Source: an uncultured virus (IMG/VR IMGVR_UViG_3300030331_003482) (Duplodnaviria > Heunggongvirae > Uroviricota > Caudoviricetes). From it: DNA of 20,000 bases. The translations under genes were made by a program, and so were the position numbers. The DNA lies in IMG/VR virus record IMGVR_UViG_3300030331_003482, positions 45,227 to 65,226 of that record. One strand, given 5' to 3'. The first letter of the stretch is position 1. Every line of letters begins with the position of its first letter. Shown here piece after piece: positions 1 through 5,366 of this stretch. The notes beneath the pieces were generated by a model that made no database searches, had not been told where the DNA came from, and saw only the letters and a list, made by a program, of their open reading frames with translations.

Positions 1-291
1 AGTAGGTTTTTGTTTTCTGACAAGAGATATAATCTTTTCAAAGTTATGTTTCAGCTTGTGATTGTATAACTCGCCATCAAGTGTAACGTTAGGGTGTTGA
101 TCAAAGAAAGACTTAAGAGCCATTTCAATATGTCTAACGTTCATAAATTGTTTGTGGTTACGCGAATACGCACCATATTTTGTAAATAAGCATCGAACAC
201 CATCGAGCTTAGGTTGTATGTATACGACCTGATTCCAGTCTACTCTAGACTTGTCAAATTTGTGGGCCAGCATTGCCTTGTGTTGTATCAT
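1..291 (-). CDS. ATP-dependent DNA ligase, N-terminal part (runs off the left edge)
   Basis: Not in the ORF track. Manual translation from ATG 291: MIQHKAMLAHKFDKSRVDWNQVVYIQPKLDGVRCLF...SRN...LDGELY... It contains adenylation motif I (KxDGxR) and motif III (LDGELY). Confidence 0.9.
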   Translation of the reverse strand, partial: MIQHKAMLAHKFDKSRVDWNQVVYIQPKLDGVRCLFTKYGAYSRNHKQFMNVRHIEMALKSFFDQHPNVTLDGELYNHKLKHNFEKIISLVRKQKPT

Positions 292-583
292 CTAAGTTAT
301 CTAATTTATTTTGTATTATTTCTAATCTTCGTTTTATTATCGCCGCTTTCATATATTCTTCTTTACCTTCATATATTGCAAGCAGCGTGTGTAGTCTAGC
401 CATTTCAGCAACTAAAAATTCTTCTTCAGTTTCTTTGAAAGGCATATAACCTTTCATTATGTCAGCAATAGTCATTGGCGTAGACATTTGATGTTCTTCT
501 TGTTTAAACTTCCACAGCATCTTTTTAATTACCGCATCCGTTATCATATCAATTGTTGCATCGTTTATATTATCTAAATCCAT
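254..583 (-). CDS. Hypothetical protein with C-terminal UVR (uvrB/uvrC)-like helical motif; true start may be ATG 547
   Basis: ORF track. EEYMKAAIIKRRLE resembles the UVR consensus E(D/E)(F/Y)ExAAxxRDxI. The motif copy at 568-600 overlaps ATG 583. Confidence 0.6.
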   Translation of the reverse strand: MDLDNINDATIDMITDAVIKKMLWKFKQEEHQMSTPMTIADIMKGYMPFKETEEEFLVAEMARLHTLLAIYEGKEEYMKAAIIKRRLEIIQNKLDNLDDTTQGNAGPQI

Positions 584-600
584 TCGTATTTAGTTTGTTT
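568..600 (-). promoter_or_regulatory. Conserved early-promoter-like motif, copy 1
   Basis: Minus strand AAACAAACTAAATACGA-N9-GATAATA. Confidence 0.7.
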
Positions 601-1066
601 TTGCTAGTTGTTCTATTTTTTTAAATCTTTGTGTTAGTCTAGTATCCTTTTCAAAGTCAGTATAATCCATATCTGATTTATATTTTTCTATAATTTTATC
701 AGGGGTTAACACAAATACACATTTACTAGTGTATTGATCATAGCAGCTAATCCATATATCATCAGCGCCTGTCCATATGACGTAAGTGTAGTTATGATCT
801 ATAGATTGTGGCTCTGCATATAAGTAGCAACTGTCATAGTACATATCGTGTACTAACTTAGCTGCCATTGCGGTACCATCTTGTCTAGCATTAGCTTTAC
901 ACCAATTTGCTAGCTGTACACCTTGCCACTCAGGATAACCATCGTGATGTAAATACATATTTACATAGCTTTTGTCACCTAAATTCCAAGGATCTTGAGC
1001 AAAACCTAATTCGTGATTTTGTGCGTAGTCTCTATCAACTACCATTGTTAAATTTCTTGTACTCAT
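590..1066 (-). CDS. Phage hypothetical protein (MSTR...YxHxDGYP type)
   Basis: 158-aa ORF, tightly packed with neighbours. MSTR start and YLHHDGYP motif are typical of small phage early proteins. Confidence 0.75.
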   Translation of the reverse strand: MSTRNLTMVVDRDYAQNHELGFAQDPWNLGDKSYVNMYLHHDGYPEWQGVQLANWCKANARQDGTAMAAKLVHDMYYDSCYLYAEPQSIDHNYTYVIWTGADDIWISCYDQYTSKCVFVLTPDKIIEKYKSDMDYTDFEKDTRLTQRFKKIEQLAKTN

Positions 1067-1230
1067 TTTATTCCACCGTTTTTAATTGTTCTTCTTATTT
1101 CCATCAGATAATCATGAAACTTACTCCACTTATCTGAATCATCTTCATATGTTGCTGCCTCGATTCTAAATTTAAAATCTTTTATAAGCATAGTCAACAT
1201 ATTGTTTATTACTTCTTTTGGTATTGGCAT
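1063..1230 (-). CDS. Small hypothetical protein (55 aa)
   Basis: Manual translation MPIPKEVINNMLTMLIKDFKFRIEAATYEDDSDKWSKFHDYLMEIRRTIKNGGIK*. TAATG overlap with the upstream gene and ATGA overlap with the downstream gene. Confidence 0.75.
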   Translation of the reverse strand: MPIPKEVINNMLTMLIKDFKFRIEAATYEDDSDKWSKFHDYLMEIRRTIKNGGIK

Positions 1231-1538
1231 TATCTTTCATCTTTAAATAACGCTAAACCAAGTTTAGCATAGTTAATAATATCAGCAAATCTACTATCAA
1301 TAGACTCTGCTTTCTTTACGTTAGCATGATTAACATGAGCAAATACACTATTGACTTGTTTGTCAAAGTATGTAGCCCATACTTTTAATGCACTAGTATT
1401 CAGCCTGTTGGCTGTGCTTTTAAAATTATTTAGTACATCATCATTCATTAGTGTATACTCAGGGCCTTTGTCACCCATTATATTTTTAGCCATAAGTGAT
1501 ATAGCTTTATCTAGTTTATTAAATTCTGCTTGTGTCAT
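1230..1538 (-). CDS. Nucleotide-modification-associated domain 1 (Nmad1/DUF1599)-like all-alpha protein
   Basis: Pattern KGPEY...NNF...DKQV...ESIDSRFADIINYAKL matches remembered family motifs. Confidence 0.6.
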   Translation of the reverse strand: MTQAEFNKLDKAISLMAKNIMGDKGPEYTLMNDDVLNNFKSTANRLNTSALKVWATYFDKQVNSVFAHVNHANVKKAESIDSRFADIINYAKLGLALFKDER

Positions 1539-1549
1539 TTTTTTATTGT

Positions 1550-1843
1550 TTAATCTAGTAATGTCATATAAGCTGTAGGGTTTTCTGATCTAAACCAGTC
1601 TACAGCTTTTATCATATCCTTTTGTAATTTAACCATTGCAGGATCTTCTATGTAAAAGTCACCTGAGTTTTGAGCGTTTACAGCTAATGTATACTCAGCG
1701 CCTTTTATAAAATCATACATAGATAACTCTGGACCTGATATTAAACACTTTGCGCCTGAAAAAGGATTTTTTACTATATCACCTTGTGTGTACCAAGTAC
1801 CTTTAAACCATTTTGGTTTTTCTTGTTTATTCTTTGTATCCAT
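1550..1843 (-). CDS. Phage hypothetical protein
   Basis: 97-aa ORF in the co-oriented cluster, overlapping the upstream gene end. Confidence 0.7.
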   Translation of the reverse strand: MDTKNKQEKPKWFKGTWYTQGDIVKNPFSGAKCLISGPELSMYDFIKGAEYTLAVNAQNSGDFYIEDPAMVKLQKDMIKAVDWFRSENPTAYMTLLD

Positions 1844-2285
1844 CGTATTCTTTGTCTAGTAATTCATCTTTCTTATCATCAAACTTGTTACTATACCAAT
1901 CTTGGTATTTATCAGTGCAAATACTAAGAAAATCATATTCCATATCTTCCCATATAGCTGGATCAATCCAAACCATATCACCGTCATTTAAAGTATCAAG
2001 TACTCTATCAGACCACTCAGGGTGATCTTCATAATAGTATACATCATTATCTATACTTGGAGCACCGTGATCTCTAGTACAAACATAAACATCATACTGA
2101 TCAGCTGTGGTGTTAGTATATATTATTAAGTTTTCAGTGCCATTCGCCCAACTGCTTTTAACATCTAACGTTCCTGAGTACTCTTCTTTCAATACTTTCC
2201 AAGCATCTTCATCTTGTAAGCCAAAAATGATACCATCTTTTTCTAGTTCTTCTCTGACTATATCTGGCGTTAATATATTACTCAT
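1827..2285 (-). CDS. Acidic phage hypothetical protein
   Basis: 152-aa, very D/E-rich ORF; start overlaps the upstream gene end. Confidence 0.75.
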   Translation of the reverse strand: MSNILTPDIVREELEKDGIIFGLQDEDAWKVLKEEYSGTLDVKSSWANGTENLIIYTNTTADQYDVYVCTRDHGAPSIDNDVYYYEDHPEWSDRVLDTLNDGDMVWIDPAIWEDMEYDFLSICTDKYQDWYSNKFDDKKDELLDKEYDGYKE

Positions 2286-2508
2286 TTATCATAATGTTTT
2301 CGCCATATATAAAATCATAAGGAGACATTTTATAGCTTGTTAAACTTGTGTATGTAATGAGCTCGTTTATTTGTTGTATGGTAAGCTCAGACCATAATGA
2401 CTTAGACATGAGAGTATATTTAAGCATTCTAGCGGTATCATACTTCTTAGCGCTAGACCTTAAATCAACTTTAACCTCTGTCTTTAGTTTATCATATATT
2501 GATTTCAT
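2278..2508 (-). CDS. Hypothetical protein (76 aa; start revised to ATG 2508, MKSIYDK...)
   Basis: ATG 2508 follows motif copy 2 and an A-rich leader. The longer track start (2601) lies inside a structured RNA. Confidence 0.7.
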   Translation of the reverse strand: MKSIYDKLKTEVKVDLRSSAKKYDTARMLKYTLMSKSLWSELTIQQINELITYTSLTSYKMSPYDFIYGENIMINE

Positions 2509-2526
2509 AATTGTTAAATTTATATT

Positions 2527-2559
2527 TATTATCCTATTGTCATCGTATTTTGTTTGTAA
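2527..2559 (-). promoter_or_regulatory. Conserved early-promoter-like motif, copy 2
   Basis: TTACAAACAAAATACGA-N9-GATAATA. Confidence 0.75.
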
Positions 2560-2560
2560 T

Positions 2561-2665
2561 AAGTGGCGGCCAACCTGTGAGCAATGTCTTAAGCTTCTCA
2601 CGATGGACCGAGTTACGTATTGTTCACTTTGGGCTCACTTCTGAACGAAGTTACCTCGCCACCCC
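2561..2665 (-). ncRNA. Putative structured ncRNA (closed multi-branch fold)
   Basis: GC-rich island. GGGTGGCG/CGCCACTT and TAACTT/AGGTTG close the ends; internal stems are GTTCA/TGAAC and GTGAG/CTCAC. Confidence 0.5.
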
Positions 2666-2694
2666 AATACTGCGGTGCTTCCATCAGCCTGTAG

Positions 2695-2768
2695 TGGACG
2701 TGGCAGGAGTCGAACCTGCGTCTGGCACCTTTGCTTACGCCGAGGTTGCCGCCAACCATTACACGCCC
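2695..2768 (-). ncRNA. tmRNA-like tRNA-like domain lacking the mRNA-like domain (mini-tmRNA / Ala-tRNA mimic)
   Basis: Acceptor GGGCGTG/CACGTCC with G3-U70 and discriminator A. Stemless D-loop TAATGGTTGGC. Helix GGCA(A)CCT/AGGTGCC capped by GC-GTAA-GC. AGAC linker, then T-arm GCAGG-TTCGACT-CCTGC. Confidence 0.75.
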
Positions 2769-2989
2769 TATATCTCGTCGTAATAAGGATTAGTTATTAC
2801 TCCAAGTTGCAATGCTAGCTGCCTAGCAACAAGTTGCATGAGATAACTATGAGTGTCGTTGAATTGTTTGCCCTCAAGATCTTCATACTCCTTGCTGTCT
2901 AGTGCCCAGCTGCATTGTCTTTTAATATCTTTTTTAACTAAGCTTGCTATTGCTTTTGCTTCTATATCTAAGTTTTTAATTCTTCCCAT
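2768..2989 (-). CDS. Hypothetical protein
   Basis: 73-aa ORF; its TAG stop overlaps G1 of the tRNA-like RNA. Confidence 0.65.
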   Translation of the reverse strand: MGRIKNLDIEAKAIASLVKKDIKRQCSWALDSKEYEDLEGKQFNDTHSYLMQLVARQLALQLGVITNPYYDEI

Positions 2990-3074
2990 AATATTCTTCT
3001 ATTGTTACCCATTTGTCTATTTCTTGACAGTAAATCATACCATCAATTACGTTATTTTCTTCAAATCTACACAT
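2976..3074 (-). CDS. Small hypothetical protein (32 aa)
   Basis: Manual translation MCRFEENNVIDGMIYCQEIDKWVTIEEYYGKN*; fills the gap between its neighbours. Confidence 0.55.
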   Translation of the reverse strand: MCRFEENNVIDGMIYCQEIDKWVTIEEYYGKN

Positions 3075-3075
3075 A

Positions 3076-3297
3076 TTATACATTTCTTAGCATTGTACCA
3101 TAACCTCTGCGCTCGGTTAACTTACGTATACGTTTCGCCTGTTCTTTCGGCATAATCTGGATAGTATTACCGGTTTTGTGGTAGTTTATACTTATACAAC
3201 CATAAGGTTGCGTAGTACTGCAGTTGACGCAAGAGGTATACCCTAGGGCCAACCGAGCTTGAGGTATTATATTTTTACATTTACAATATTTTTTCAT
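3076..3297 (-). CDS. DksA/TraR C4-type zinc-finger-like protein
   Basis: YCKCKNIIPQARLALGYTSCVNC resembles CxxCGxxIPxxRLxxxPxxxxCxxC. Confidence 0.6.
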   Translation of the reverse strand: MKKYCKCKNIIPQARLALGYTSCVNCSTTQPYGCISINYHKTGNTIQIMPKEQAKRIRKLTERRGYGTMLRNV

Positions 3298-3304
3298 ACA
3301 ATTA

Positions 3305-3337
3305 TATTATCTTGCTTTAATCGTATTTTGTTTGTAA
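3305..3337 (-). promoter_or_regulatory. Conserved early-promoter-like motif, copy 3 (embedded in the 3' end of the upstream CDS)
   Basis: TTACAAACAAAATACGA-N9-GATAATA; ATG at 3297. Confidence 0.75.
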
Positions 3338-3771
3338 TTCTTTAAATAGTATTCTAACATATAGTTTAATCTAGCTAAGCTTGACCGTACTTTAGCCCTT
3401 GCTTTACCTATAAACTTTCTAGTTTGTAGTTTACCATCGATCAAGAACGTAGTTCTTTGCTCTTGATTATACGTTTTATTTATTTGATATGGTGAATAAC
3501 AACCATTTTGTTTTCTAACATAACCTGATTTGAAGCAAGCTAGTCTTAATCTTGGTGTATTTTCCCACTTAGTTCCGCTTGATATTAACCATCTTTTGTA
3601 ATAAGCGTTAGTATTAGCGTACGTAGAAACAGGAAACTCAAATTCTCTTGTACCATTTATCGCTTGTTTTTGAGTGGTTACCTCTTTAATATTATACTTA
3701 ATTAGCAATTGTCTTACAAAAGCGTTCTCAAGTGCTTCTTGTTCTAGTTGATATTTAGTTGCTTGTGTCAT
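3307..3771 (-). CDS. Basic phage hypothetical protein
   Basis: 154-aa ORF with A-rich leader. Confidence 0.75.
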   Translation of the reverse strand: MTQATKYQLEQEALENAFVRQLLIKYNIKEVTTQKQAINGTREFEFPVSTYANTNAYYKRWLISSGTKWENTPRLRLACFKSGYVRKQNGCYSPYQINKTYNQEQRTTFLIDGKLQTRKFIGKARAKVRSSLARLNYMLEYYLKNYKQNTIKAR

Positions 3772-4018
3772 AGTTTTTATTAATTTTATTCGCCATTTTT
3801 ATAAATTCAAAATCTTTTTCAAAGCCTTCAGGTGCATACTTGTTATATAAATCTACTAGTTCTTGCGTCCACCCGCCTAATTCTTGTACTTTGCTACTGA
3901 TAATTTTTGCTTGACGCCTACCAGAATCATAGTATCTATTATCGTCACTCATCATGTAAGTGTGATCGTGACACTTAAACATGTCTTCTATTGATAAATC
4001 TTCAAATGTTTTTGACAT
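3755..4018 (-). CDS. Hypothetical protein (HDHTYMMSDD motif); start at ATG 4018 or 4030
   Basis: ORF track 3755..4030; HDxxYxxSDD is a recurrent small-phage-protein pattern. Confidence 0.7.
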   Translation of the reverse strand: MSKTFEDLSIEDMFKCHDHTYMMSDDNRYYDSGRRQAKIISSKVQELGGWTQELVDLYNKYAPEGFEKDFEFIKMANKINKNYDTSN

Positions 4019-4181
4019 AACTCTTTCCATTTATTGTTATATAGTTGTTACACATTTTCGCATAAGGTACTCTGTGATAAACAGAACCTTCAATTAAACC
4101 ATCGCTATCGACAGTGTCATACAAGATGACGCTTTGTGGTACATCATGTATATCATAGTTAGTAAATTTTATTGTATTCAT
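4002..4181 (-). CDS. Small hypothetical protein (59 aa)
   Basis: Manual translation MNTIKFTNYDIHDVPQSVILYDTVDSDGLIEGSVYHRVPYAKMCNNYITINGKSYVKNI*; directly after motif copy 4. Confidence 0.65.
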   Translation of the reverse strand: MNTIKFTNYDIHDVPQSVILYDTVDSDGLIEGSVYHRVPYAKMCNNYITINGKSYVKNI

Positions 4182-4186
4182 ATTAT

Positions 4187-4219
4187 TATTATCTTACTAT
4201 GTTCGTATTTAGACTGTAA
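4187..4219 (-). promoter_or_regulatory. Conserved early-promoter-like motif, copy 4
   Basis: TTACAGTCTAAATACGA-N9-GATAATA. Confidence 0.75.
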
Positions 4220-4319
4220 ATTCATCACTTGAATCTAATCTATCATACCAATCATCTAAAATCATTTGTATTTGTTCTGAAGTGAGAACAGTTATCCTAT
4301 TATTACTAGTGCTACCCAT
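4209..4319 (-). CDS. Possible small acidic protein (36 aa)
   Basis: MGSTSNNRITVLTSEQIQMILDDWYDRLDSSDEFTV*. Confidence 0.4.
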   Translation of the reverse strand: MGSTSNNRITVLTSEQIQMILDDWYDRLDSSDEFTV

Positions 4320-4378
4320 AGTGTTAAAGTTAAAAGTGTTAAAAATATTATGTTTTCTAATGTTTCTTTTATATTCAT
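4292..4378 (-). CDS. Small single-TM membrane peptide (28 aa)
   Basis: MNIKETLENIIFLTLLTLTLWVALVIIG*; leader AAATATATAACT-ATG resembles that of the 4681 gene (AAATATAATAACT-ATG). Confidence 0.55.
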   Translation of the reverse strand: MNIKETLENIIFLTLLTLTLWVALVIIG

Positions 4379-4392
4379 AGTTATATATTTAG

Positions 4393-4436
4393 TTCTCGTG
4401 TGAGTAATCGAAACCCACCTCTGCTCCAAGACGAGA
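4393..4436 (-). ncRNA. tRNA-like minihelix (acceptor-like stem plus T-arm)
   Basis: TCTCGT-CTTGGAGCAGAG-GTGGGT-TTCGATT-ACTCAC-ACGAGA-A then CTA: 6+6 bp coaxial helices and a 7-nt T-loop. Confidence 0.55.
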
Positions 4437-4453
4437 TGTGAGGTTGAGTTAGA

Positions 4454-4681
4454 TTATACTAACTCTTTACCTCTTAATACTACTGGAATATTATTAGTCG
4501 CAGTGTAAGACTTATATTTTAACCAACATGGTAATTTAGTAAGTGTATCTTTCATTAGTGAAAATACTTTATCGTGATTATAAGTTATTGTATCACCTTT
4601 TTTGTTAGTGAATTCAATAGTTTGATTTTTACCGATTAGTGATTGTCTTACAACAAATCTTTTAGAAATTAAGTTACTCAT
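4454..4681 (-). CDS. Hypothetical protein, first substantial gene of the leftward arm
   Basis: 75-aa ORF after motif copy 5 with A-rich leader. Confidence 0.75.
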   Translation of the reverse strand: MSNLISKRFVVRQSLIGKNQTIEFTNKKGDTITYNHDKVFSLMKDTLTKLPCWLKYKSYTATNNIPVVLRGKELV

Positions 4682-4708
4682 AGTTATTATATTTAAGTTA
4701 TTTATATT

Positions 4709-4741
4709 TATTATCTTTTGAGTTTCGTATTTAGTTTGTAA
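4709..4741 (-). promoter_or_regulatory. Conserved early-promoter-like motif, copy 5
   Basis: TTACAAACTAAATACGA-N9-GATAATA (consensus). Confidence 0.75.
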
Positions 4742-4837
4742 AAGTATGTGAATTGTTTACTTGTAAATTTGTTATTAATAGTATACCGCAATCACTCTCT
4801 TTATTAAACATATTTATTATTTTTTTAAACTCATATA

Positions 4838-4870
4838 TATTATCTTTATATAGTCGTATTTATTATGTAA
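4838..4870 (-). promoter_or_regulatory. Conserved early-promoter-like motif, copy 6
   Basis: TTACATAATAAATACGA-N9-GATAATA. Confidence 0.7.
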
Positions 4871-5003
4871 ACTTAGTGAGTATATATTATAAAAATTTAA
4901 CTATATACATGTAAAATGTGAAAATATTTACACAAATATATATAAAAAGGGGGCCCCTACTCTTACAAAAATGATTTTTTTTATACAGACAAAGTACGAT
5001 AGA

Positions 5004-5019
5004 GTAGTGGCAACACTAC
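5004..5019 (+). repeat. Hairpin with GNRA tetraloop
   Basis: GTAGTG-GCAA-CACTAC, perfect 6-bp stem. Confidence 0.5.
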
Positions 5020-5049
5020 ACCTCATTACATCTCAAGCATATTTTTATA

Positions 5050-5092
5050 TGACAGTAGCCTTATAGATACTAATAGTAATAGGCAAATGTCA
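5050..5092. repeat. Spaced inverted repeat (operator- or terminus-like)
   Basis: TGACA-N3-GCCT-N19-AGGC-N3-TGTCA. Confidence 0.55.
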
Positions 5093-5132
5093 CCTTTTTA
5101 AATCATACTAAATACATGTAATATATTATAGT

Positions 5133-5366
5133 ATGGCGAAGCAGAAATTATCACTAAAAGCTAGGGCTGCTAAAAAACGTAGAGACCTAAGAGCAGCTAA
5201 TAGCGACAGGCGCAAAGCTATGAGAGCTGAAAACCAGCGTAAAAGACGTGCTGCTATTAAAGCCGGAAAAAATATACGTGGCAAAGACTACGATCACAAA
5301 ACCAAGAAGTTTACAAGTATAAAAGCGAACCGTGGAAACAGGGGACACGGTACGCGTAATGAATAA
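5133..5366 (+). CDS. Highly basic small protein, possibly degenerate HNH-like
   Basis: K/R-rich 77 aa; C-terminal KDYDH...KANRG. Confidence 0.65.
   Translation: MAKQKLSLKARAAKKRRDLRAANSDRRKAMRAENQRKRRAAIKAGKNIRGKDYDHKTKKFTSIKANRGNRGHGTRNE

What the first reader, a model, noticed from the sequence alone, without database searches (positions are those of the whole stretch)
4390..4436. A ~44-nt tRNA minihelix between early genes, ending in the same ACTA as the mini-tmRNA
Seen: TCTCGT/ACGAGA (6 bp) stacks directly on GTGGGT/ACTCAC (6 bp, one G-U) with loop TTCGATT. That gives 12 bp in total, like the tRNA acceptor plus T helix (7+5). A 12-nt GG-containing linker replaces the D and anticodon arms. 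It is followed by A-CTA, exactly as at 2695-2692. Known: RNase P, RNase Z and CCA-adding enzyme recognise the 12-bp helix and T-loop. Inference: this phage may use tRNA mimics as mRNA punctuation/processing sites or as small decoy RNAs. Two different mimics in one early arm suggest a dedicated system.
Basis: partly seen in the sequence, partly recalled or inferred. Interest (0 to 1): 0.7.

Follow-up and report, generated by a model that had tools for sequence, protein, structure and literature searches.

The report
Conserved mini-tRNA mimic in phage early operon
An uncultured marine phage carries, right after its first early gene, a 44-base RNA that keeps only the top half of a tRNA, and its conservation across many related phages shows it is functional, most likely as a site where host tRNA-processing enzymes cut the early transcript.

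Summary
On the minus strand, 4436..4390 reads TCTCGT / 12-nt GG linker / GTGGGT-TTCGATT-ACTCAC / ACGAGA / A-CTA. One sequence alone is weak evidence (fold z -0.73; strict descriptor matched in 13 of 500 simulated genomes). Comparative evidence is decisive. The element lies downstream of the same conserved 75-79-aa first early gene in 28 of 30 distinct relatives' contexts. Of 12 base pairs, 8 show compensatory changes and 97.7% of cells pair (0 of 500 shuffles). Non-Watson-Crick cells are G.U 26 against A.C 2, so the early-sense strand folds. No tRNA finder or Rfam family matches it, and cultured phages and 185,579 prokaryote genomes lack it. It occurs in 24 viral and 117 metagenome contigs. 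Its A-CTA tail equals positions 73-76 of true tRNA-Met genes in six relatives. One relative has a 64-nt cloverleaf-like tRNA-like in the same slot. In 7 of 30 loci the next start codon follows three bases after the acceptor stem. Best reading (about 0.5): a tRNA-like processing signal for RNase P and a 3' tRNA endonuclease, like plant mitochondrial t-elements. A decoy role for the released minihelix stays open. No RNA data exist.

The parts
4431..4436 (-). 5' strand of the acceptor-like stem (TCTCGT)
   Evidence: It pairs with 4394-4399. Four of its 6 pairs show compensatory changes. Twelve acceptor variants were seen among 43 distinct elements.
4419..4430 (-). 12-nt linker CTTGGAGCAGAG with the GG that would mimic D-loop G18-G19
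   Evidence: Invariant or nearly so in the close family. TGG is kept in every divergent variant found by gene anchoring. The contact with the T-loop is inferred.
4413..4418 (-). 5' strand of the T stem (GTGGGT)
   Evidence: Variants include GTGTGT/ACACAC, GTAGGT/ACCTAC and GTATGT/ACATAC.
4406..4412 (-). T-loop TTCGATT
   Evidence: Identical in all 30 CM matches, including divergent ones. It matches the tRNA T-loop consensus TTCRANN (consensus recalled).
4400..4405 (-). 3' strand of the T stem (ACTCAC)
4394..4399 (-). 3' strand of the acceptor-like stem (ACGAGA), stacked directly on the T stem
4390..4393 (-). Discriminator-like A followed by CTA, in the place of N73-CCA
   Evidence: ACTA occurs in 32 and GCTA in 4 of 43 distinct elements. 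Six of six tRNA-Met genes of relatives have N73-C-T-A.
4440..4473 (-). Hairpin spanning the stop codon (TAA 4456-4454) of the upstream gene, ending 3 nt before the minihelix
   Evidence: Comparable hairpins with different sequences end at most 4 nt upstream in 21 of 27 distinct contexts. The non-coding 3' arm tracks the coding 5' arm.
4454..4681 (-). Conserved 75-aa first early gene that always precedes the element
   Evidence: AlphaFold2 pLDDT is 86. No family, fold or named homologue was found.
4292..4378 (-). Downstream 28-aa hydrophobic ORF, the first of a variable set of small early genes
   Evidence: The downstream gene differs between relatives. A homologue of this ORF starts 3 nt after the acceptor stem in L051, L054 and L067.
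4710..4743 (-). Promoter-like repeated motif upstream of the 75-aa gene. It places the element in the first early transcription unit (inferred).
   Evidence: The same motif recurs near 3340 and 2562 on the same strand.
2692..2768 (-). Second tRNA mimic of the same arm: a tmRNA tRNA-like-domain look-alike ending A-CTA
   Evidence: tmRNA model 31.7 bits, gathering 47; tRNA model 29 bits; relatives.

Best explanation
The element is a transcribed, functional RNA that keeps only the parts of a tRNA read by shape. These are the roughly 12-bp coaxial acceptor/T helix, the T-loop, and a GG-bearing linker that probably closes the elbow.

Most likely the host tRNA-processing enzymes treat it as a pre-tRNA inside the first early polycistronic transcript. 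RNase P would cut between 4437 and 4436. That leaves the mRNA of the conserved 75-aa gene ending in its stop-codon hairpin. A 3' tRNA endonuclease of the RNase Z type, or exonucleolytic trimming, would cut at or after A4393. That frees the downstream variable small genes with a short, in some relatives nearly leaderless, 5' end. A minihelix of about 44 nt would be released and could receive CCA.

Shown: the structure, its conservation, the strand that folds, its fixed position after one gene, the tRNA-gene-like tail, and a tRNA-like ancestor or relative in the same slot. Inferred: transcription through it, all cleavages, CCA addition, and the effect on mRNA stability and translation.
For: (1) Structure under selection: 8 of 12 pairs are compensatory, 97.7% of cells pair, and 0 of 500 shuffles match. 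RNAalifold gives the same fold.

(2) The early-sense strand folds: among 408 pair cells of 34 distinct cores, G.U occurs 26 times against A.C 2.

(3) The acceptor sequence drifts freely (12 variants) while the loop TTCGATT and TGG stay. This fits enzymes that read shape, not sequence.

(4) Stem lengths trade off around 12. The main family has 6+6. The L023 copies and L009 have 7+5. L024 and L013 have only 6+5.

(5) The tail A-CTA equals positions 73-76 of 6 of 6 genuine tRNA-Met genes on the same strand in relatives.

(6) L027 carries a 64-nt cloverleaf-like tRNA-like with a 3-nt 'anticodon' loop in the same slot.

(7) The position is fixed after one gene. Of 30 distinct contexts, 28 have a descriptor hit within 300 nt. 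One of the other two lacks sequence, and the CM found the other.

(8) A hairpin ends at most 4 nt upstream in 21 of 27 contexts. This is what a protected 3' end after RNase P cleavage would need.

(9) The start codon lies 3 nt after the acceptor stem in 7 of 30 loci, and again after a second tandem copy in L023. It would be buried unless the RNA is cut.

(10) A precedent exists. Plant mitochondrial t-elements direct RNase P/Z cuts that form mRNA ends (PMC1920247, passages read).
Against: There is no RNA evidence at all: no RNA run holds the stretch.

Only one minihelix and one TLD-like element occur among the roughly 35 genes of the early strand, so this is not general punctuation.

The linker is conserved well beyond the GG (CTTGGAGCAGAG). 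Simple RNase P/Z substrates do not need that, so it hints at another specific partner.

In most loci only 3-4 unpaired bases separate the hairpin from position +1. The first pair is U-A or A-U and position -1 is A. From recalled knowledge of bacterial RNase P, which contacts the leader and prefers G+1 and U-1, these are not optimal.

Two distant variants have 11 rather than 12 stacked pairs.

The folding energy of the single sequence is unremarkable.

The host, and hence its set of RNase P, RNase Z and CCA-adding enzymes, is unknown.
Confidence: 0.5

Rival explanations
1. The released minihelix is itself the product. It would be an abundant, very early small RNA acting as a decoy or sponge for host factors that bind the tRNA acceptor end or elbow. 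Examples are defence toxins that modify or cleave tRNA 3' ends, or tRNA-processing and modifying enzymes. Processing would then only be the way it is made. This does not exclude the best explanation.
For: It sits in the first early transcription unit, next to a variable block of small genes typical of host-takeover regions. The linker is conserved beyond what cleavage needs. Relatives carry several anticodon-less tRNA mimics, including a tmRNA-TLD look-alike, on the same strand. Phage tRNAs countering tRNA-directed defences are known (recalled; the listing shows a Septu/tRNA-Tyr case, PMC13096335, abstract only).
Against: The acceptor stem drifts freely, so the element cannot imitate one particular tRNA's acceptor identity. 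No target is identified. There is no RNA evidence. The placement of start codons 3 nt after the stem in 7 of 30 loci is not explained by a decoy role.
Confidence: 0.25
2. The element acts in cis as a protein-binding or ribosome-recruiting signal. Either the conserved 75-aa protein binds it (autoregulation or RNP formation), or the tRNA shape helps Shine-Dalgarno-less initiation of the next gene without being cut.
For: It is strictly coupled to the 75-aa gene. That protein is basic and conserved, with a confident but unmatched fold. The linker sequence is conserved. Start codons lie close by. The genome's gene starts lack Shine-Dalgarno motifs.
Against: No RNA-binding family or fold was detected for the protein. 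The distance to the next start codon varies from 3 to 42 nt and the downstream gene varies. A second copy in L023 follows a different gene. The tRNA-gene-like tail is unexplained.
Confidence: 0.12
3. The element works at the DNA level. It would be a hairpin or cruciform serving as a promoter for a virion RNA polymerase, a replication origin, or a recombination/attachment site derived from a tRNA gene.
For: Hairpin promoters are known for N4 virion RNA polymerase (recalled). The phage has a 2696-aa protein of unknown function and a crAss muzzle domain. tRNA gene fragments mark phage attachment sites (recalled).
Against: The ratio of G.T 26 to A.C 2 shows one strand folds. The T-loop, TGG and tRNA-like tail are RNA-level tRNA features. 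The core pattern is absent from one genome each of 185,579 prokaryote species. No integrase was found among the 57 ORFs scanned. There is a single copy per genome, downstream rather than upstream of the first gene.
Confidence: 0.04
4. It is a decaying tRNA pseudogene or a chance hairpin without function.
For: Single-sequence statistics are weak. A fuller tRNA-like occupies the slot in L027.
Against: Compensatory changes occur in 8 of 12 pairs. The element persists across relatives whose GroEL is 65-87% identical and in 117 metagenome contigs.
Confidence: 0.02

Closest known systems
Plant mitochondrial t-elements (Forner et al. 2007, PMC1920247; abstract and passages read)
   Same: They are non-decoding tRNA-like structures with a T-arm motif and an acceptor-like stem, embedded in longer transcripts next to genes. 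Their ends coincide with mRNA 3' and 5' ends. They are thought or shown to be cut by RNase P and RNase Z. The excised element can be stable and can carry non-encoded C residues.
   Different: t-elements are organellar, mostly non-canonical cloverleaves, and were found by the motif GGTTCRANYCC. This element is in a phage and is reduced to 44 nt with a 12-nt linker. Its T stem has 6 pairs with a U-A closing pair, so the exact motif is not matched. No RNA ends have been mapped.
mascRNA at the 3' end of MALAT1 and the MEN-beta tRNA-like (recalled, not read here)
   Same: RNase P cleavage 5' of a tRNA-like structure creates the mature 3' end of the upstream RNA. That end is protected by an adjacent structure, and a small tRNA-like RNA is released and CCA-tailed.
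   Different: These are eukaryotic nuclear lncRNAs with a full cloverleaf-like shape and a triple-helix protector. Here the setting is a bacterial virus, the protector is a hairpin, and there is no anticodon or D arm.
Synthetic acceptor-T-psi-C minihelices used as substrates of RNase P, CCA-adding enzyme, EF-Tu and some synthetases (recalled; reviewed in PMC9976931, seen in a search listing only)
   Same: A 12-bp coaxial helix closed by a T-loop, with a discriminator base.
   Different: Laboratory minihelices are a single continuous hairpin without a linker and carry CCA. This natural element interrupts the 5' strand with a GG linker, probably to rebuild the elbow, and encodes CTA.
tRNA-like domains of tmRNA and of bacterial Y RNAs (YrlA; PMC4201824, abstract in listings)
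   Same: Acceptor and T-arm mimicry without decoding. Phage-borne examples exist. A TLD look-alike lies 1.7 kb away in the same arm.
   Different: The minihelix has U3-A70, not G3.U70. It matches neither Rfam model. It lacks the Ro-binding stem and the tmRNA D-loop analogue, and is far smaller.
tRNA punctuation of animal mitochondrial transcripts and the tRNA-like TMER elements of murine gammaherpesvirus 68 (recalled)
   Same: tRNA shapes serve as cut marks that free neighbouring RNAs. In mitochondria the resulting mRNAs are leaderless, as the CT-ATG arrangement in 7 of 30 loci would give.
   Different: Those use full or near-full tRNAs. Here there is a single anticodon-less minihelix per genome, in a bacterial virus.

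Membership tests
Canonical tRNA (Rfam RF00005 / ARAGORN) | Cloverleaf with a D arm and an anticodon arm bearing a 7-nt anticodon loop | tested here: not met
   Only a 12-nt linker lies between the acceptor and T stems. ARAGORN finds no gene in the window or genome. The tRNA model hits only 2694-2767, not this element.
Canonical tRNA (Rfam RF00005 / ARAGORN) | Acceptor stem stacked on the T stem (about 12 bp) and a T-loop TTCRANN | tested here: met
   6+6 pairs with the loop TTCGATT. Covariation is shown.
Canonical tRNA (Rfam RF00005 / ARAGORN) | 3' CCA, encoded or added | not testable with these tools
   CTA is encoded instead of CCA, as in 6 of 6 tRNA-Met genes of relatives. Addition of CCA needs RNA data, and none is available.
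tRNA-like mRNA processing elements (t-element / mascRNA type) | A tRNA-like acceptor/T structure lying inside a longer transcript next to coding regions | tested here: met
   It lies between the 75-aa gene and the next ORF on the coding strand, with no promoter-like repeat between them. Transcription itself is inferred.
tRNA-like mRNA processing elements (t-element / mascRNA type) | RNA ends at the borders of the element; cleavage by RNase P and RNase Z | not testable with these tools
   No RNA run holds the stretch, and the phage is uncultured.
tRNA-like mRNA processing elements (t-element / mascRNA type) | T-arm motif GGTTCRANYCC (as used in PMC1920247) | tested here: not met
   The window has GGGT-TTCGATT-ACTC, with an extra U-A pair. 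Distant variants are closer to the motif (L024: GAG-TTCGATT-CTC).
tmRNA tRNA-like domain | G3.U70 alanine identity pair and similarity to the tmRNA model | tested here: not met
   Pair 3-70 is U-A in 26 of 26 distinct sequences. No tmRNA hit was found at 4300-4520 up to E=10.
Bacterial Y RNA (YrlA) | tRNA-like domain joined to a Ro60-binding stem; a Ro60 (Rsr) gene nearby | tested here: inconclusive
   No Rfam match. No Ro60-like hit among the 57 ORFs scanned. The host genome is unknown.
Intrinsic transcription terminator | G+C-rich hairpin followed directly by a run of U | tested here: not met
   The scan's hit at 4435-4414 uses a pairing that neither covariation nor RNAalifold supports. Its 'T run' is the T-loop.
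Phage attachment site derived from a host tRNA gene | Identity with the 3' part of a host tRNA gene, plus an integrase | tested here: not met
   The core pattern has 0 matches in one genome each of 185,579 prokaryote species. Both acceptor strands are present and covary. No integrase was found among the ORFs scanned.

The most novel reading that the evidence does not exclude
A group of uncultured marine Bacteroidota-type phages runs a dedicated early 'tRNA-mimic' system. Anticodon-less mini-tRNAs (this 44-nt minihelix, a tmRNA-TLD look-alike, and 53-80-nt tRNA-likes in relatives) are excised from early transcripts by the host's tRNA-processing enzymes. This would be a bacterial-virus counterpart of mitochondrial tRNA punctuation that yields near-leaderless mRNAs. 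The released CCA-tailed minihelices would also act in trans on host factors that recognise the tRNA acceptor end or elbow, such as tRNA-directed immune effectors.
Probability: 0.3. Interest if true: 0.85.

Novelty: new variant of a known kind. Interest (0 to 1): 0.68.

Why it matters
If the reading holds, this is the smallest natural RNA known to me that keeps a tRNA's acceptor/T helix and probably its elbow while discarding everything used for decoding. It would also be the first family of this kind in a bacterial virus.

It would show that phages use the host's shape-reading tRNA enzymes to cut and stabilise their first messages, as mitochondria and some eukaryotic lncRNAs do.

Together with the neighbouring mini-tmRNA and the other mimics in relatives, it points to an unexplored layer of phage-host conflict around tRNA-binding machinery.

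The family is abundant in marine metagenomes (117 contigs for one strict pattern) and absent from Rfam. It is therefore a ready candidate for a new RNA family, and a compact natural substrate for studies of RNase P, RNase Z and the CCA-adding enzyme.

Tried and rejected
- **tRNA finders.** ARAGORN at default finds nothing. At relaxed thresholds it gives 30-156 calls across the genome, which is noise, and none is the minihelix.
- **Rfam.** Nothing at the gathering threshold. At E up to 10 over 4300-4520 there were only five chance-level hits.
- **Terminator-like hit at 4435-4414.** Rejected: the pairing is not conserved.
- **3-bp mini-hairpin inside the linker (CUU/GAG, MFE).** Rejected: the variants GTG and CTG break it.
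- **Pairing of the linker with the 5' leader.** Considered by eye and not supported by the variants.
- **TTG-start ORF 4429..4292 across the element.** Judged spurious. The ATG at 4378 gives the 28-aa ORF that has homologues.
- **Cultured relatives.** GenBank phages have no DNA match to 3800-5200 or to the element. They also have no match to the 75-aa protein or the 2696-aa protein. The best GroEL match is 41.5% identical.
- **RNA runs.** No RNA holder is listed.
- **Earlier findings of this scan.** Nothing for this genome or sequence.
- **The 75-aa protein.** There are no PHROG hits and only chance-level Pfam hits. Foldseek's best E-value is 1.4. VIA-align's best Z is 2.9; both top rows happen to be tRNA-splicing endonucleases but are at noise level. 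The ESM Atlas gives only viral hypothetical proteins, at 0.76.
- **Metagenome contig ends near the element.** They showed no consistent border.
- **Literature.** Searches for a phage minihelix or tRNA mimic listed no paper describing such an element. This covers only the held open-access library.
- **Weak PNK-like hit in the 2696-aa protein (E 8e-5).** Not pursued.

Full report
**What is there.** The window is the last 20 kb of a 65,226-bp viral record with 33% G+C. Genes at 1..4681 run on the minus strand, and structural and other genes from 5133 run on the plus strand.

- TCTCGT at 4436-4431
- the linker CTTGGAGCAGAG at 4430-4419
- GTGGGT at 4418-4413
- the loop TTCGATT at 4412-4406
- ACTCAC at 4405-4400
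- ACGAGA at 4399-4394
- A at 4393, then CTA at 4392-4390

The element lies between a 75-aa ORF (4681..4454) and a 28-aa hydrophobic ORF that starts at 4378. The other ACTA, at 2695-2692, closes a 77-nt element. The Rfam tmRNA model aligns that element as a tRNA-like domain with the interior deleted (31.7 bits against a gathering score of 47). The tRNA model scores it 29 bits.

**Is it more than chance?** From this sequence alone, only just.
- The fold is -12.1 kcal/mol with z -0.73.
- A loose descriptor (6-bp acceptor, linker of 6-45 nt, T stem of 5-6 bp, loop TTCRANN) hits simulated genomes about once each.
- A strict post-hoc descriptor hits 13 of 500 simulations.
- ARAGORN and Rfam see nothing.

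**Relatives settle the question.** Loci were collected through the neighbouring GroEL gene (32 loci) and through sequence patterns.

An alignment of 13 copies folds to the same 12 pairs with RNAalifold. In it 99.4% of cells pair and 6 of 12 pairs carry compensatory double changes.

A covariance model built from the alignment found 30 copies, 26 of them distinct, including divergent ones. In these, 97.7% of cells pair and 8 of 12 pairs are compensatory. No shuffle out of 500 reaches this, and slid structures pair in only 21-55% of cells.

A strict core pattern occurs in 24 viral contigs and 117 metagenome contigs. It does not occur in one genome each of 185,579 prokaryote species. In the 105 loci examined, 101 complete elements gave 43 distinct variants. 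These include 12 acceptor-stem versions and 17 T-stem versions, and nearly all are fully paired. The pattern fixed the loop and most of the linker, so this set says nothing about how well those parts are conserved.

Among the 408 pair cells of 34 distinct cores, the non-Watson-Crick cells are G.U 26 times and A.C twice. The structure therefore forms on the early-sense strand, as an RNA would.

**Context.** The upstream gene is always the same conserved 75-79-aa protein. Of 30 distinct downstream contexts of that gene, 28 have a tRNA-like descriptor hit within 300 nt. One of the remaining two has no sequence available. The other has a terminal U.U and was found by the covariance model. The downstream gene varies between relatives.

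This genome has a single copy of the element.

A hairpin ends at most 4 nt before the element in 21 of 27 distinct contexts. Its sequence differs between lineages, and in the short-gap class it contains the stop codon. In the window this hairpin is at 4473-4440.

A promoter-like repeat precedes the 75-aa gene and recurs twice further down the arm. The element would therefore lie in the first early transcription unit, though this is inferred.

**tRNA kinship.** Divergent versions keep the loop TTCGATT and a TGG in the linker, but they redistribute the helix:
- 6+6 pairs in the main family
- 7+5 in both L023 copies and in L009
- 6+5 in L024 and L013

L027 has, in the same slot, a 64-nt cloverleaf-like RNA with a 3-nt 'anticodon' loop. 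This suggests the element arose from a tRNA gene by loss of the decoding half.

Six relatives carry a real tRNA-Met gene on the same strand, and its positions 73-76 read N-C-T-A. That is the same tail as the minihelix, which has ACTA or GCTA in 36 of 43 variants, and as the mini-tmRNA.

Relatives also carry TLD-like elements and tRNA-like elements of 53 to about 80 nt on that strand.

In 7 of 30 loci the next start codon begins 3 nt after the acceptor stem. L023 has two tandem cassettes of minihelix, CT and ATG.

**Mechanism.** The features under selection are those read by shape-recognising tRNA enzymes: helix length, the T-loop and a probable elbow. The acceptor sequence drifts freely.

Four observations point the same way: the tRNA-gene-like tail, the hairpin just upstream, the start codons that would otherwise be buried, and the fixed place after one gene. 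The most economical reading is therefore a processing signal. RNase P would cut 5' of it, and the upstream mRNA would end in the hairpin. A 3' tRNA nuclease would cut at the discriminator, and the downstream mRNA would start a few bases before its AUG. A minihelix would be released.

This is how plant mitochondrial t-elements are thought to work (PMC1920247, passages read). From recall, MALAT1/mascRNA and mitochondrial tRNA punctuation work the same way. I put this reading at about 0.5.

**What argues against it, or for something more.**
- There is no RNA evidence.
- There is one copy per genome.
- The linker is conserved far beyond GG.
- The single-stranded leader is short.
- The first base pair is U-A or A-U.

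A trans-acting decoy role for the released RNA (0.25) and a cis protein- or ribosome-binding role (0.12) remain open, and the decoy role is compatible with processing. DNA-level roles and the pseudogene reading are unlikely (0.04 and 0.02).

The 75-aa partner protein gave no functional lead. Its model is confident (pLDDT 86), but no family or fold match was found.

**The phage.** It has a terminase, portal, GroEL, holin, crAss muzzle domain, BACON domain, sigma factor, ribonucleotide reductase, thymidylate synthase, ERF and ligase. Its gene starts are A/T-rich and lack Shine-Dalgarno motifs. Its closest named GroEL matches are in Flavobacterium phages at 41.5% identity. DNA runs that hold the stretch are labelled marine or aquatic metagenomes. 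A Bacteroidota host is likely but not shown.

**Novelty.** No Rfam family, no GenBank phage and no paper in the searched library describes the element. The kind of element is known: a tRNA-like processing element or tRNA mimic. The form and setting are new: 44 nt, a GG linker in place of two arms, and a phage early operon. I therefore class it as a new variant of a known kind.

Noticed in passing
window 2692-2768 (-), and 2565-2692: A 77-nt tmRNA tRNA-like-domain look-alike with G3.U70 and T arm GCAGG-TTCGACT-CCTGC, ending A-CTA. It scores 31.7 bits on the tmRNA model and 29 bits on the tRNA model. A G+C-rich stretch follows it and is 92% identical in L051. Similar 3' halves with different interiors occur in L009, L016 and L027.
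   Followed up: partly
window about 4710-4743, 3300-3345 and 2520-2565 (-): A repeated promoter-like motif, TTACAAAC(A/T)AAATACGA, then 9-11 nt, then GATAAT, lies in front of three early gene blocks. Copies are also found in many relatives.
   Followed up: partly
L023 3852-3896 and 3653-3696 (-): Two tandem minihelices, each followed after CT by the ATG of a small gene. L011 and L022 have only the first. This looks like a gene-plus-minihelix cassette gained or lost.
   Followed up: partly
L027 4594-4657 (-): A 64-nt cloverleaf-like tRNA-like (6-bp acceptor, small D-like arm, 8-bp arm with a 3-nt loop, T arm) in the slot where other phages have the minihelix. It may be an evolutionary intermediate.
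   Followed up: partly
L012 1058-1131, L016 3776-3848, L021 789-863, L024 2173-2247, L035 2354-2427, L041 503-577: Phage tRNA-Met (CAT) genes on the early strand encode C-T-A at positions 74-76 instead of CCA. The L012 type has a G1.A72 mismatch, as initiator tRNAs have a 1-72 mismatch. The window's own phage lacks this gene.
   Followed up: partly
L022 685-737 and L023 1834-1886 (-); L002 3169-3246; L024 2368-2452; L013 770-851: Further anticodon-less tRNA-like elements (53 to about 85 nt) with a canonical T arm and 6-7-bp acceptor stems on the early strand of relatives, most followed by CTA or CCTA.
   Followed up: no
window 4454-4681 (-): The 75-aa first early protein is conserved in all relatives, with 21 invariant columns. 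It has a confident predicted alpha/beta fold (pLDDT 86) but no family, no fold match and no homologue in GenBank phages.
   Followed up: yes
genome 21023-29113 (+), outside the window: A 2696-aa protein with no Pfam hit and no match in GenBank phages. It has a weak PHROG hit to polynucleotide kinase at residues 1826-2020 (E 8e-5).
   Followed up: no
genome 41030-41762 (-), outside the window: Two overlapping ORFs (120 and 152 aa) each match part of the PDDEXK-like family DUF3799. This may be a split or frameshifted exonuclease gene next to ERF.
   Followed up: no
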